8,789 nt of DNA from a virus (taxonomy: Duplodnaviria > Heunggongvirae > Uroviricota > Caudoviricetes): the IMG/VR virus record IMGVR_UViG_2778261162_000002, positions 1-8,789 of that record; one strand, given 5' to 3'. The translations under genes and the position numbers were made by a program. The notes beneath the pieces are model-generated. The model had not been told where the DNA came from, did no database searches, and saw only the letters and a program-made list of their open reading frames with translations. This document shows, one piece after another, positions 5,825-8,436 of this stretch (positions are counted from its first letter, which is position 1; each line of letters opens with the position of its first letter).

Positions 5825-6427
5825 TTATCCCCCGAATGCTGATGTAATGCTTCCGCCCAGCTGGCTCAGCAAGGATTCGTTTGGCGGTGTAGTGGATTTC
5901 GTCCCGGAATTCTGCACTGCCGATGTGCTGACGCCATCCTGCATATCTGATTTATCTGCAACGCTAACGCTCTGCGTCTGCGACATGATCACTTCACGCA
6001 GGGTAAGCGTGCAGTTCAGCACGTTCTCGCTGGTTTTATCCGTTGTCACCTCGATGGCTCGCACCAGCATATTGCTGTAAACCCGCTTTCCGGTCATTAC
6101 ATCGAACGGCAACCGAGAGGACTGGAGATCCAGCAGTTGCTGATAGGTCTCTTTCGGGCTAAGTCCGGCGCTGAGGCCGATTGACGATGTATCAATGAAG
6201 TCCAGCAACGAACCGCCACCAGCGAAGCCGCATTCCATTGTGACTTCACTGGGGCGCTTGTACGCATGATCGGCGATGAAACCCGAGGCACTATTCGTTG
6301 TTGGCTTCTCCACCGGGTGCTCAGTAATTTCGAGCGCATCAGAATGCTTTTCAGAAACAACCACGCTGGGGATTAATATTCCAATTCGCCGGGATTGCTG
6401 GCGAAAAATCGCTGATAAAATATCCAT
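5825..6427 (-). CDS. Phage tail protein immediately downstream of the tape measure gene (possible tube-initiator/distal-tail protein), 200 aa
   Basis: Complete ORF whose ATG (6427-6425) overlaps the tape measure TAA (6429-6427), minus strand TAATG. Position matches gpU / distal tail protein equivalents; the sequence itself is not diagnostic to me. Confidence 0.65.
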   Translation of the reverse strand: MDILSAIFRQQSRRIGILIPSVVVSEKHSDALEITEHPVEKPTTNSASGFIADHAYKRPSEVTMECGFAGGGSLLDFIDTSSIGLSAGLSPKETYQQLLDLQSSRLPFDVMTGKRVYSNMLVRAIEVTTDKTSENVLNCTLTLREVIMSQTQSVSVADKSDMQDGVSTSAVQNSGTKSTTPPNESLLSQLGGSITSAFGG

Positions 6428-8436
6428 TATCTCGGTCCTGCGGTGAGTTGCTGGGTTAACTGTGAGTTCACACCCTTTTGACGGTCAACAGTCAAACGGG
6501 CAGCCTCGCGCGGATCGGAAACGCCGTGGATGTTAATATTCGTTTCCTGCTGAATCACCGGGGCGCTGTTGGGCATATTGCTCATCACTTTCGGAATGTA
6601 GTTACGCGTTTCCTGCGGCATTAGCCCCATGCCATAACGCTTAACATTCCCGATCCCCCAGTTATATGATGCCAGTGCTTTGCTAAGGTCTCCGCCGTTC
6701 TGCCGCAACAGCTGGCTAAGGTACTTAGCGGCTGCCTTGGCGGCCTTCTCCGGGTCGAAAACATCGTTCCCACGCAACCCCATATCACGCGCCGTGCCGT
6801 CCATAAACTGAAACAGACCTTTAGCGCCAGCGCCTGAAACAGCGAACTGATTACCTCCCGATTCCGTGATGGCCACACTGCGCAGCAAACCTTCATGAAG
6901 CCGGTAGAGCTGTTCCAGGTTGGTAAGCATCGGCTGCATCCATCCCAGCAACTCAGAGCCCGCTTTGGTTGGCTGTGGCCGCTTGACTGACTGGCCGAGC
7001 TGTTCAGGTTCATCAGTACCAAACCAGCCGCGCACCGTTCGGCCCACGCTGCGAGGATCGAATCCCCAGTGCTCTTTAATCCAGTCGGCGGTACCGTTGG
7101 CGCTGTCAGTAACCATCGGCATCGCTGACGGATTTTCGCTGCCCTGATTGAGCATCTGTTTGCCAATGCTGGCGGCATCAGCCCAGCGGCCATCTTTAAT
7201 GGCGTTGAGCAGGTCGGCGATCATATTCAGCATTTTGCTGAACTCGCCCATCTGGTCGATGAAGTTGCTGAAATCCCACTTCAGGGACCATGATTTGGGG
7301 TCAATATTGAGCAGCTTCGCCAGAGCTTTCGCCAGTTCGTTAACGGTCGATTTAAGGTCACGAACCATCTTCAGCGCGGCGTCGACTTCCGGTTTCCACT
7401 TGCCCCAGTCGATAAGGCTGTCGCCGCCCTCCTTCCAGGTCTGATAGTCCTCCCACAGAAGAGCAATCCCCGCCGCCAGCGCGGTAATGAGGCCAATCGG
7501 CGACATCCAGAACGTACTGTTCAGAATGCGCAGCGCAATCGTCAGTGCGCCAAACAGCGAGATCAGCTCCCGGGTTTGCTTATCCAGCGATTGCCACCAG
7601 GTAATAAGGCTGGATGTCCCCTCAATAAGCCGGAAGAACAACCGCCCGATGATGTCCCCGAGCGCCAGAATGCCTTTTATGGCTTTCGTCAGGGTCTGCT
7701 CGATGCGCGGGAAATTATCCAGGATATGACGGCGCAGCGTGTCCAGCGAACCCGCCAGACCACCAGCAAGATTAGAGCCGATTTTGTCACGGGCCATGCC
7801 TGCCATCGCGCCGAACTCGCGCATAGAAGTCATGAACTTATTGGAGCTTCTGGCCGCCTCGTCAGCATTAAAGCCGATAGCCTTCGCCATTGCGCTGTAG
7901 TGCCCGGAGAAACCGCCCACACCCCGGCGCATCGCCATGAGGGTGTTTTCGTCAATCCCCAGCATCTGCGCATACTGGTTAGCCCGGTAGTACGGCATGC
8001 TGCTGAGCTTCTGGCCGACACCCGTAAAGATAGCGGCCATGTCACGCATGTTACCGCTGGCGTCACGGGTCTGTACGCCCAGGCGATTCAGGAAGCCTTC
8101 CGCGCCGGGATTGTTACGCACAAATCGGGAGAGGCTTTCCAGAGAAGATCGCGCAGCGTCCACACTGCCACCAACCTGCGAAACCGCATAGCCAATAGAC
8201 TGAATCCCCTGTACCGTCGCGCCGGTGCGCTGTGACGCCCAGTAGAGATTATCCAGACCGGAGGCGATCTTAGCCGTGAAGGCCACCACGGTAAGCGCGG
8301 CACCTTCGACGGCCAGCCCCATTTTGATAGCGTTTGCGGTCGTGCCGGCCAGGACTGAATCGAACTTTTCCGCGCCAGCTTCGTCGATATCGAAACCAAG
8401 CGAGACGAGGAAATCTTTAATAGTCTCAGCGTTCAT
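6427..8436 (-). CDS. Tail tape measure protein with C-terminal lytic transglycosylase (SLT) domain, 669 aa
   Basis: Long ORF with RBS GGAGAGAGG upstream of the ATG at 8436. N-terminal half is Ala/Gly/Met-rich and helical, typical of tape measure proteins, with a hydrophobic stretch (LISLFGALTIALRILNSTFWMSPIGLITALAAGIALLW). The C-terminal region carries family 1 lytic transglycosylase motifs: AITESGGN (catalytic Glu-Ser), GAKGLFQFMDGTA (GLMQ-type) and ASYNWGIGN (AYNxG-type). Confidence 0.85.
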   Translation of the reverse strand: MNAETIKDFLVSLGFDIDEAGAEKFDSVLAGTTANAIKMGLAVEGAALTVVAFTAKIASGLDNLYWASQRTGATVQGIQSIGYAVSQVGGSVDAARSSLESLSRFVRNNPGAEGFLNRLGVQTRDASGNMRDMAAIFTGVGQKLSSMPYYRANQYAQMLGIDENTLMAMRRGVGGFSGHYSAMAKAIGFNADEAARSSNKFMTSMREFGAMAGMARDKIGSNLAGGLAGSLDTLRRHILDNFPRIEQTLTKAIKGILALGDIIGRLFFRLIEGTSSLITWWQSLDKQTRELISLFGALTIALRILNSTFWMSPIGLITALAAGIALLWEDYQTWKEGGDSLIDWGKWKPEVDAALKMVRDLKSTVNELAKALAKLLNIDPKSWSLKWDFSNFIDQMGEFSKMLNMIADLLNAIKDGRWADAASIGKQMLNQGSENPSAMPMVTDSANGTADWIKEHWGFDPRSVGRTVRGWFGTDEPEQLGQSVKRPQPTKAGSELLGWMQPMLTNLEQLYRLHEGLLRSVAITESGGNQFAVSGAGAKGLFQFMDGTARDMGLRGNDVFDPEKAAKAAAKYLSQLLRQNGGDLSKALASYNWGIGNVKRYGMGLMPQETRNYIPKVMSNMPNSAPVIQQETNINIHGVSDPREAARLTVDRQKGVNSQLTQQLTAGPR

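What the first reader, a model, noticed from the sequence alone, without database searches (positions are those of the whole stretch)
6427..8436. Tape measure protein carrying a C-terminal lytic transglycosylase domain
The catalytic ES motif (AITESGGN) and downstream GLFQ and SYNWG motifs indicate an SLT-type muramidase fused to the C-terminal end of the 669-aa tape measure, the end ejected first through the envelope. Tape measure and peptidoglycan hydrolase fusions are known, but the placement is worth recording because the tape measure is short and the virion enzyme may matter for infecting stationary-phase cells.
Basis: partly seen in the sequence, partly recalled or inferred. Interest (0 to 1): 0.4.

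Follow-up and report, generated by a model that had tools for sequence, protein, structure and literature searches.

The report
Prophage tape measure with cell-wall-cutting domain
This gene encodes the tail-length "tape measure" protein of a SEN34-like contractile-tailed prophage of E. coli, and it carries an intact cell-wall-cutting (lytic transglycosylase) domain near its C-terminus; the arrangement is real, but it is common and already annotated in databases.

Summary
A 669-aa ORF lies at 6427..8436 on the minus strand and contains all three quoted motifs. Pfam SLT matches aa 508-603 (E=1.7e-24). A confident AlphaFold model of aa 490-619 matches the solved lytic transglycosylases Slt, MltD, MltE and T7 gp16. 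The catalytic Glu (E525) aligns with theirs and is invariant in SLT-bearing relatives.

The tape-measure identity is also supported. PHROG 2276 matches over the full length (E=6.8e-253). The gene follows a tail-assembly chaperone that has a -1 slippery site, and it precedes tube-initiator, plug, hub and spike genes in the same order as in myophage Pam3.

Three corrections apply:
- The phage is a myovirus (Brunovirus; 88% nt identity to the SEN34 gene).
- 669 aa is not short for this family, whose median is 692 aa.
- The SLT domain is not terminal. A conserved ~40-residue tail follows it and probably docks on the tail tip.

Among 110 relatives the same slot holds a Phage_lysozyme2-like module (45), an "NNPGN" endolysin-like module (25-26), SLT (15-16) or something unclassified (24).

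The exact protein is already in NCBI. TMP-SLT fusions are described for P1 Sit and Pa193 gp41. Enzyme activity and the stationary-phase idea remain untested. Verdict: correct, ordinary, already known.

The parts
6427..8436 (-). Tail tape measure protein gene, 669 aa
   Evidence: ORF. PHROG 2276 full-length match, E=6.8e-253. 88% nt and 91% aa identity to Salmonella phage SEN34 gp16 'tail length tape measure protein'. The identical protein is in NCBI as 'transglycosylase SLT domain-containing protein'.
7357..8436 (-). Conserved N-terminal tape-measure core (aa 1-360)
   Evidence: In the 111-sequence alignment A2, occupancy is ~1.0 and identity to the query is 0.27-0.55. Weak PhageMin_Tail and TIGR01760 matches fall below their cut-offs. 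AF2 gives helices with pLDDT ~97 for aa 50-220.
7450..7566 (-). Two adjacent hydrophobic helices (aa 291-329), followed by a Trp-rich conserved motif DYxTWKEGGxSLIDWxKWxP
   Evidence: Kyte-Doolittle 19-residue windows peak at 1.59 and 1.88. P313, L327, D330, W334, G337, W344 and W347 are at least 90% conserved in A2. A membrane-insertion role is inferred, not shown.
6970..7356 (-). Variable helical spacer and linker (aa 361-489)
   Evidence: Occupancy is 0.45-0.72 and identity 0.07-0.15 in A2. The 738-aa variants carry a 69-aa insertion at aa 475-484. The recombination junction to alternative modules is at aa ~486.
6577..6969 (-). Lytic transglycosylase (SLT, family 1) domain, aa ~490-620. The Pfam match is aa 508-603 = window 6628-6915.
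   Evidence: Pfam SLT E=1.7e-24. AF2 pLDDT is 95-99 across the domain. Foldseek hits to Slt 5ohu, MltD, MltE, MltC, MltF and T7 gp16 at prob 1.00.
6862..6864 (-). Codon of the predicted catalytic Glu, E525 (the E of TES)
   Evidence: It aligns with the ES of P. aeruginosa Slt, MltD, Pa193 gp41 and T7 gp16. E and S are invariant in 38/38 SLT-bearing representatives that cover the site.
6433..6555 (-). Conserved C-terminal tail (aa 628-668), including a predicted helix at aa 642-666. Probable anchor to the hub/spike.
   Evidence: Occupancy 0.98; Q630 81%, G638 92% and N657 75% conserved across relatives, whichever enzymatic module they carry. Helix pLDDT is ~81-94. The analogy is Pa193 gp41 residues 840-858, which bind the tail tip. 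The docking role is inferred.
8614..8789 (-). 3' end of the tail assembly chaperone gene, cut by the window end (context supporting the TMP assignment)
   Evidence: Annotated 'phage tail assembly chaperone' in E. coli UPEC 26-1. The reading frame ends ...SPTSPTPGQLQG*.
8662..8671 (-). Candidate -1 slippery run GGGAAATTTT, with overlapping X_XXY_YYZ heptamers G_GGA_AAT and A_AAT_TTT in the chaperone frame
   Evidence: Sequence and frames. The -1 frame is open from ~8726 to the stop at 8426. Frameshifting is inferred from the conserved G/GT arrangement and was not demonstrated.
8426..8661 (-). -1 frame extension of the chaperone (the 'T' part; the 8426..8590 portion is annotated DUF6889). Its stop overlaps the TMP start.
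5825..6427 (-). Downstream neighbour: Dit-like baseplate tube initiator (context)
   Evidence: Pfam Dit_like E=4e-30. Same gene position as Pam3 gp17.

Best explanation
The gene encodes the tail tape measure protein of a temperate SEN34-like (Brunovirus) contractile-tailed phage integrated in E. coli. The protein has four parts:
- a conserved helical N-terminal core (aa 1-360) containing a hydrophobic helical hairpin;
- a variable spacer;
- a family-1 lytic transglycosylase domain (aa ~490-620, catalytic E525);
- a conserved ~40-residue C-terminal tail.

Proposed mechanism (inferred). During assembly the C-terminal tail docks on the hub/spike. The chaperone pair (G and its -1 frameshift product) holds the extended protein while the tube polymerises around it, which sets tail length. 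On infection the sheath contracts and the spike leaves. The TMP then exits C-terminus first, and the SLT domain folds in the periplasm. There it cleaves MurNAc-GlcNAc bonds locally, producing 1,6-anhydroMurNAc ends and opening the sacculus for the tube and DNA conduit. The hydrophobic helices may contribute to an inner-membrane channel.

Shown here: domain identity, intact and conserved catalytic motifs, gene context, modular architecture. Inferred: virion location, order of ejection, enzymatic activity, any growth-phase dependence.
For: - ORF and motifs.
- SLT domain: Pfam SLT 86.1 bits, E=1.7e-24.
- TMP identity: PHROG 2276 full length, E=6.8e-253.
- Source: Brunovirus prophage, 98.6% nt identity to E. 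coli UPEC 26-1, and the SEN34 gp16 orthologue is annotated as TMP.
- Gene order: sheath, tube, chaperone, -1 ORF, TMP, tube initiator, plug, hub, spike, wedge, fibre. This equals the Pam3 order.
- Slippery run upstream.
- AF2 model of aa 470-669 has pLDDT 88.7 and matches Slt, MltD, MltE and T7 gp16 by Foldseek.
- E525 aligns with the catalytic ES of these enzymes. E/S are invariant in 38/38 and YNWG in 39/42 SLT-bearing representatives.
- The C-terminal tail is conserved across cassette types. The Pa193 TMP C-terminus binds the tail tip, and its SLT domain is likewise internal.
- SEN34 has its own holin/endolysin/spanin cassette, so the TMP domain is not the lysis enzyme.
- The domain is 39% identical to the P1 Sit SLT and 34% to T7-like gp16.
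Against: - No experimental data exist for this protein or for SEN34 gp16: no virion proteomics, zymogram or mutant.
- Curated TMP models match only below their cut-offs (Pfam PhageMin_Tail 20.6 vs 33.2 bits; TIGR01760 15 vs 28.8).
- The full-length model found no structural neighbour in the PDB.
- The SLT domain is dispensable for the family as such. 94 of the 110 relatives lack it (78 of these have no SLT-family Pfam or profile match at all), and 24 have no recognisable enzyme module.
- Virion lysins of T4, T7 and TM4 are non-essential under standard conditions (PMC1796659), so the benefit may be small or conditional.
Confidence: 0.85

Rival explanations
1. The SLT domain is the phage's lysis enzyme (or a second endolysin). 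It would act from within at the end of the lytic cycle rather than during entry.
For: PHROG families annotated 'endolysin' match the C-terminal part (phrog_669, phrog_10475). SLT-type endolysins exist, for example phiKZ gp144 among the fold hits.
Against: The domain is embedded in a 669-aa structural protein inside the tail operon. It has no signal peptide and no neighbouring holin. The close relative SEN34 carries a separate holin-endolysin-spanin cassette next to the Q antiterminator.
Confidence: 0.03
2. The SLT domain is catalytically dead or non-essential. It would serve only as ruler length, as a peptidoglycan-binding module, or as a structural spacer.
For: In TM4, deleting the muralytic motif shortened the tail as predicted, so such motifs do count as ruler length. 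Many relatives have other modules, or none recognisable, in the same slot.
Against: All catalytic signatures are intact: ES, GLFQ, YNWG and the downstream conserved Tyr613. They are nearly invariant among relatives of only 35-60% identity. The alternative modules in the slot are themselves muralytic types: Phage_lysozyme2, and an NNPGN module related to PDB 'Endolysin' 7q47. This argues that selection acts on enzymatic function.
Confidence: 0.08
3. The protein is a separate tail-associated lysin or ejection protein rather than the length-determining tape measure.
For: RefSeq names it only 'transglycosylase SLT domain-containing protein'. Curated TMP HMMs are below threshold.
Against: It is the only long helical protein in the tail module, and it occupies the canonical slot after the chaperone/frameshift pair. 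PHROG and the SEN34 annotation call it a TMP. 669 aa x 1.5 A is about 100 nm, which is compatible with a ~107-149 nm myovirus tail group.
Confidence: 0.04

Closest known systems
Salmonella phage SEN34 gp16 (SEN34_16, YP_009191622.1), Brunovirus tail length tape measure protein
   Same: Orthologue. It is 669 aa with 91% aa and 88% nt identity, has the same neighbours (chaperone upstream, baseplate genes downstream) and has an SLT domain at the same place. SEN34 was shown by EM to have a contractile tail (PMC5261728).
   Different: Different host (Salmonella diarizonae). The last ~40 residues are a different allele in many Salmonella relatives. The accessory genes between hub and spike also differ.
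Pseudomonas phage Pa193 gp41 tape measure protein (PDB 9B45; PMC11456595)
   Same: It is a myovirus TMP with an internal SLT domain (residues 491-582) that aligns to aa 480-602 here, including the ES catalytic motif. Its C-terminal helix sits on the tail tip, which is the model for the conserved tail here. The baseplate hub here also matches the Pbunavirus E217 hub family.
   Different: Pa193 gp41 is 858 aa, with ~270 residues after the SLT domain against ~50 here. Outside the SLT domain only a marginal match was found (aa 111-243, 5.8 bits, i-E 36). It is a virulent Pseudomonas phage.
Phage P1 Sit (tape measure with SLT domain; PMC9024508)
   Same: It is an E. coli myovirus TMP whose SLT domain (~aa 750-900 of 1140) is proposed to replace the T4 gp5-type spike lysozyme. 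The SLT domains are 39% identical. The spike here likewise has no lysozyme domain.
   Different: Sit is much longer, and the rest of the protein is unrelated.
T7 gp16 internal core protein (lytic transglycosylase N-terminal domain)
   Same: It has a homologous SLT domain (34% identity in T7-like phages, with structural matches 9jyy_I and 7k5c_B) and the catalytic Glu aligns. It is ejected into the periplasm at infection. Mutants are most affected on cells entering stationary phase (cited in PMC1796659).
   Different: It is a podovirus capsid-internal ejection protein, not a tape measure, and the domain is N-terminal.
Mycobacteriophage TM4 Tmp motif 3; T5 Pb2
   Same: Both are tape measures carrying muralytic modules. 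TM4 motif 3 aids infection of stationary-phase cells and counts towards tail length.
   Different: Both are siphoviruses with different enzyme families. TM4 infects a mycolata host.

Membership tests
Family-1 lytic transglycosylase domain (Pfam SLT PF01464; Slt70/MltC/MltD/MltE/MltF type) | Profile match above the curated threshold | tested here: met
   86.1 bits against a gathering score of 21.3, E=1.7e-24, aa 508-603 covering profile positions 7-106 of 117.
Family-1 lytic transglycosylase domain (Pfam SLT PF01464; Slt70/MltC/MltD/MltE/MltF type) | Catalytic Glu in the E-S motif, aligned with the catalytic Glu of solved enzymes | tested here: met
   E525-S526 aligns with the ES of P. aeruginosa Slt (the PDB titles name E503Q as the inactive mutant), MltD, Pa193 gp41 and T7 gp16. 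It is invariant in 38/38 relatives.
Family-1 lytic transglycosylase domain (Pfam SLT PF01464; Slt70/MltC/MltD/MltE/MltF type) | Motif II (GLMQ-type) and motif III (AYNAG-type) | tested here: met
   GLFQ at aa 540-543 and SYNWG at aa 590-594. G540, F542, Q543, Y591, N592, W593 and G594 are conserved in 36-39 of ~42 relatives.
Family-1 lytic transglycosylase domain (Pfam SLT PF01464; Slt70/MltC/MltD/MltE/MltF type) | Goose-lysozyme-like all-helical fold | tested here: met
   In the AF2 model, aa 490-619 have pLDDT 95-99. Foldseek against the PDB gives 48 hits at E<=1e-3, all lytic transglycosylases; the top hit is Slt 5ohu at E=3.9e-6, prob 1.00.
Family-1 lytic transglycosylase domain (Pfam SLT PF01464; Slt70/MltC/MltD/MltE/MltF type) | Non-hydrolytic cleavage of MurNAc-GlcNAc giving 1,6-anhydroMurNAc | not testable with these tools
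   Requires an enzyme assay on sacculi with muropeptide analysis.
Phage tail tape measure protein | Gene located directly after the tail assembly chaperone pair (G/GT, -1 frameshift) and before the baseplate/tail-tip genes | tested here: met
   The chaperone ends at 8614. The slippery run GGGAAATTTT is at 8662-8671. The -1 ORF runs to 8426 and overlaps the TMP start at 8436. Tube initiator, plug, hub and spike genes follow.
Phage tail tape measure protein | Sequence-profile membership in TMP families | tested here: inconclusive
   PHROG 2276 'tail length tape measure protein' matches full length at E=6.8e-253. The curated models fall below their cut-offs: Pfam PhageMin_Tail 20.6 vs 33.2 bits, TIGR01760 15 vs 28.8 bits.
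Phage tail tape measure protein | Long, predominantly alpha-helical protein with hydrophobic segments | tested here: met
   DSSP on the AF2 model shows about 29 helices and no beta domain. Hydrophobic helices lie at aa 291-329.
Phage tail tape measure protein | Length proportional to tail length (~1.5 A per residue) | tested here: inconclusive
   669 aa corresponds to ~100 nm. The SEN34 paper gives only a range of 107-149 nm for four myoviruses including SEN34.
Phage tail tape measure protein | Present in the tail lumen of virions, and mutations change tail length | not testable with these tools
   Needs proteomics or cryo-EM and genetics.
Endolysin of a holin-endolysin-spanin lysis cassette | Small soluble or SAR enzyme encoded next to holin and spanin genes | tested here: not met
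   The domain is part of a 669-aa tail protein. The relative SEN34 encodes a separate holin/endolysin/Rz cassette ~25 kb away.

The most novel reading that the evidence does not exclude
In this widespread enterobacterial myophage TMP family, the region between aa ~487 and ~625 behaves as a hot-swappable 'warhead' slot. Near-identical proteins (95% identity over aa 1-486) carry unrelated muralytic modules: SLT here, an NNPGN/Pae87-like endolysin module in most E. coli relatives, and Phage_lysozyme2 elsewhere. All are flanked by the same conserved docking tail. If the choice of module adapts the phage to host peptidoglycan chemistry or to periplasmic lysozyme/transglycosylase inhibitors, it would be a host-range or growth-state determinant that could be engineered.
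Probability: 0.25. Interest if true: 0.4.

Novelty: already known. Interest (0 to 1): 0.15.

Why it matters
It matters little as a discovery. The annotation is correct and useful: RefSeq calls the protein only an 'SLT domain-containing protein', whereas it is the tape measure. TMP-borne lytic transglycosylases are already described in myoviruses (P1 Sit, Pa193 gp41). The practical value is as a defined, testable virion lysin in a common E. coli/Salmonella/Enterobacter prophage lineage. The natural series of cassette variants could also be used to ask what a virion-borne wall enzyme contributes to entry.

Tried and rejected
- Foldseek of the full-length AF2 model against the PDB gave no hit below E=0.38. 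The model is an elongated helical protein, and its SLT part was poorly modelled because alignment A2 mixes non-homologous cassettes. I re-modelled aa 470-669 with SLT-only relatives, which worked.
- PADLOC found no defence-system match for the TMP or for the small low-GC ORFs.
- Extracting the cassette by alignment column and clustering with BLAST gave mixed clusters, because MAFFT columns are unreliable in the variable region. I replaced this with seed-based jackhmmer classification.
- hhalign between the SLT, NNPGN and Phage_lysozyme2-like modules found no significant relationship: probabilities 5.6%, 0.4% and 23%.
- A literature search for the 'NNPGN' motif returned nothing relevant.
- I considered and rejected three readings: endolysin role, dead domain, and 'not the tape measure' (see rivals).
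Full report
**1. The observation**

The window contains a 669-codon ORF at 6427..8436 on the minus strand. It has an ATG start preceded by a GGAGAGAGG purine run. The three quoted motifs are present:
- AITESGGN at aa 522-529 (window 6850-6873);
- GLFQ at aa 540-543 (6808-6819);
- SYNWG at aa 590-594 (6655-6669).

These are not chance motif hits. Pfam SLT (PF01464) matches aa 508-603 with 86.1 bits against a gathering score of 21.3, E=1.7e-24.

**2. What the surrounding DNA is**

The window is 98.6% identical over its whole length to a prophage of E. coli UPEC 26-1, which lies next to a MurR/RpiR-family regulator gene and yfhb. 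The gene itself is 88% nt and 91% aa identical to gp16 of Salmonella phage SEN34 (genus Brunovirus), where it is annotated 'tail length tape measure protein'. Electron microscopy showed that SEN34 has an icosahedral head and a long contractile tail, despite its lambda-like early region (PMC5261728).

All genes in the window are on the minus strand. Their order is:
- tail assembly chaperone (3' end, >8614);
- a -1 frame ORF (8426..8617, DUF6889);
- the TMP (6427..8436);
- a Dit-like protein (5825..6427);
- a Pam3-gp18-type plug (5518..5823);
- the hub (4451..5515);
- three small low-GC ORFs;
- the spike (2626..3264);
- a gp25-like wedge protein (2269..2622);
- Baseplate_J (1069..2268);
- DUF2612 (392..1072);
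- the start of a tail fibre gene.

This is the same order as in the minimal myophage Pam3: TMP, tube initiator gp17, plug gp18, hub gp19, spike gp20, sheath initiator gp21, wedge gp22/23, fibre gp24 (PMC9942802).

**3. Is it the tape measure?**

Four lines of evidence say yes.
- PHROG 2276 'tail length tape measure protein' matches aa 1-668 at E=6.8e-253.
- In the chaperone reading frame there is a run G GGA AAT TTT at 8662-8671. It contains two overlapping canonical X_XXY_YYZ heptamers. The -1 frame is open from ~8726 to a stop at 8426, which overlaps the TMP start. This is the conserved G/GT arrangement that precedes tape measure genes. Frameshifting itself is inferred.
- The AlphaFold model is almost wholly helical. 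It has about 29 helices and pLDDT ~97 for aa 50-220.
- Two adjacent hydrophobic helices lie at aa 291-329.

There are caveats. The curated TMP models match only below their cut-offs: Pfam PhageMin_Tail 20.6 vs 33.2 bits and TIGR01760 15 vs 28.8 bits. RefSeq names the protein only by its SLT domain.

**4. Is the SLT domain intact?**

I modelled aa 470-669 using an alignment of 36 SLT-bearing relatives. The model has mean pLDDT 88.7, and 95-99 across aa 490-619. Foldseek against the PDB returned 48 hits at E<=1e-3. All are lytic transglycosylases:
- P. aeruginosa Slt (5ohu, E=3.9e-6);
- MltD, MltE, MltC and MltF;
- T7 gp16 (9jyy_I, 7k5c_B);
- phiKZ gp144, just beyond that cut-off at E=1.5e-3.

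In sequence alignments E525-S526 pairs with the ES of Slt, MltD, Pa193 gp41 and T7 gp16. The PDB titles name E503Q as the inactive mutant of Slt. Among cluster representatives only 35-60% identical to the query, E and S are invariant (38/38). Y591, N592, W593 and G594 are kept in 39 of ~42. The domain therefore looks catalytically competent. Activity was not and could not be tested here.

**5.

I aligned 110 full-length relatives, each a representative of a 50%-identity cluster. This alignment shows three zones:
- aa 1-360 is conserved, with occupancy ~1.0 and identity to the query of 0.27-0.55;
- aa 361-630 is variable, with occupancy 0.42-0.73 and identity 0.07-0.15;
- aa 628-668 is conserved again, with occupancy 0.98 and Q630 81%, G638 92%, N657 75%.

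So the SLT domain is not the terminal element. A conserved tail with a predicted helix (aa 642-666) follows it. [quoted passage not shown] By analogy the tail here is the docking element, and the C-terminal end does leave first.

The TMP is also not short. The family median is 692 aa, with a 10th-90th percentile range of 602-765. 669 aa x 1.5 A is about 100 nm, which suits a myovirus in the 107-149 nm group. In TM4, deleting the muralytic motif shortened the tail as predicted, so such modules count as ruler length (PMC1796659).

**6. The SLT domain is one of several cassettes**

A Pfam scan of 71 relatives found Phage_lysozyme2 (PF18013) in 20, SLT in 15 and SLT_2 in 3. Seeded jackhmmer classification of all 110 relatives gave:

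| Module in the slot | Relatives |
|---|---|
| Phage_lysozyme2-like | 45 |
| 'NNPGN' module | 25 |
| SLT | 15 |
| Both SLT and NNPGN | 1 |
| Unclassified | 24 |

All modules start around residue 480-500 and are followed by 50-80 residues. The three modules are unrelated at profile level.

The swap is visible at close range. The E. coli prophage proteins in L003 and L005 are 95% identical to the query through aa 486. They then switch to the NNPGN module and rejoin at the C-terminal tail. That module has no Pfam hit. It does match the PDB entries 7q47 'Endolysin' (E=1.1e-12) and 9vvp 'Gp29' (E=1.6e-19). RefSeq names it inconsistently, as 'hypothetical protein' or 'lytic transglycosylase'.

Of 5,426 complete E. 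coli genomes, 345 hold part of this gene at >=80% nt identity, but only 12 cover >=80% of it. A 738-aa allele differs by a 69-aa insertion in the linker at aa 475-484.

**7. Mechanism**

The best-supported reading is a virion-associated lysin built into the tape measure.
- Assembly on the hub/spike through the C-terminal tail, followed by tube polymerisation around the chaperoned TMP, is inferred from the G/GT context and from the Pam3 and Pa193 structures.
- After sheath contraction and loss of the spike, the TMP exits C-terminus first.
- The SLT domain then cuts glycan strands locally.
- The hydrophobic hairpin and the Trp-rich motif may engage the inner membrane.

An endolysin role is unlikely, because SEN34 has its own holin-endolysin-spanin cassette. 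The spike here has no lysozyme domain, which parallels the argument made for P1 Sit (PMC9024508). The stationary-phase benefit is a reasonable analogy to TM4 Tmp and T7 gp16, but it is untested.

**8. Comparison and novelty**

The identical protein is already in NCBI and UniRef. The family is a PHROG annotated as TMP. TMP-SLT fusions in myoviruses are published for P1 Sit and Pa193 gp41. Muralytic modules in tape measures have been known since TM4, T5 Pb2 and phiIPLA35 (PMC6116005). The finding is therefore correct but already known.

The cassette-swapping pattern is a modest addition. Interchangeable TMP motifs have already been described in mycobacteriophages.

**9. Verdict**

Novelty: already known. 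Interest: 0.15.

Noticed in passing
window 3270-4450 (minus-strand ORFs 3309..3521, 3530..4087, 4084..4509): A low-GC island (36-42% against 54-58% in the flanks) sits between the baseplate spike and hub genes. It holds three small ORFs: one with several hydrophobic segments (185 aa, PHROG 23273, unknown function) and one with a signal-peptide-like N-terminus (141 aa, PHROG 3443; called 'putative exported protein' in Klebsiella prophages). None has a Pfam or PADLOC hit. SEN34 carries different small ORFs in the same slot, so this looks like a moron/cargo hotspot inside the baseplate operon.
   Followed up: partly
window 8662-8671 and 8426-8726 (minus strand): The tail assembly chaperone gene has a slippery run GGGAAATTTT, with overlapping heptamers G_GGA_AAT and A_AAT_TTT in frame. 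The -1 frame is open to a stop at 8426, which overlaps the TMP start. RefSeq annotates the distal part as a separate 'DUF6889 family protein' rather than as a frameshift product.
   Followed up: partly
L003:948-2936 (-) and L005:148-2136 (-), compared with window 6577-6969: E. coli prophage TMPs that are 95% identical to this one through aa 486 carry an unrelated ~135-aa 'NNPGN' module in place of the SLT domain. The module has no Pfam hit. It matches PDB 7q47 'Endolysin' and 9vvp 'Gp29'. RefSeq labels 99%-identical copies either 'hypothetical protein' or 'lytic transglycosylase'. This is the commoner form among complete E. coli genomes.
   Followed up: partly
window ~6970-7012 (aa 475-489 linker); proteins P0102, P0115, P0118: A 731-738-aa allele of the same TMP has a 62-69-aa insertion in the linker just before the SLT domain. 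If the ruler rule holds, tails should be ~10 nm longer; otherwise the linker is not measured.
   Followed up: no
window 6427-6555 (aa 628-669): The conserved C-terminal tail occurs as two distinct alleles among otherwise ~90%-identical proteins...QETNINIHGVSDPREAARL... versus ...QQNTYHIYGGGDPRSVG... It might co-vary with the hub/spike partner. Co-variation was not examined.
   Followed up: no
whole window: Some part of the window matches 4,800 of 5,426 complete E. coli genomes by megablast, whereas the TMP gene matches only 345. Another segment must therefore be very widely shared among E. coli prophages, possibly the tail-fibre end at 1-391 or the baseplate genes. I did not determine which.
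   Followed up: no
window 392-6427: The baseplate gene set and order (tube initiator, plug, hub, spike, gp25-like, Baseplate_J, DUF2612, fibre) mirror the six-component minimal baseplate of cyanophage Pam3 and the Pbunavirus E217 hub family. This enterobacterial prophage lineage therefore has a 'simple' myovirus baseplate.
   Followed up: partly
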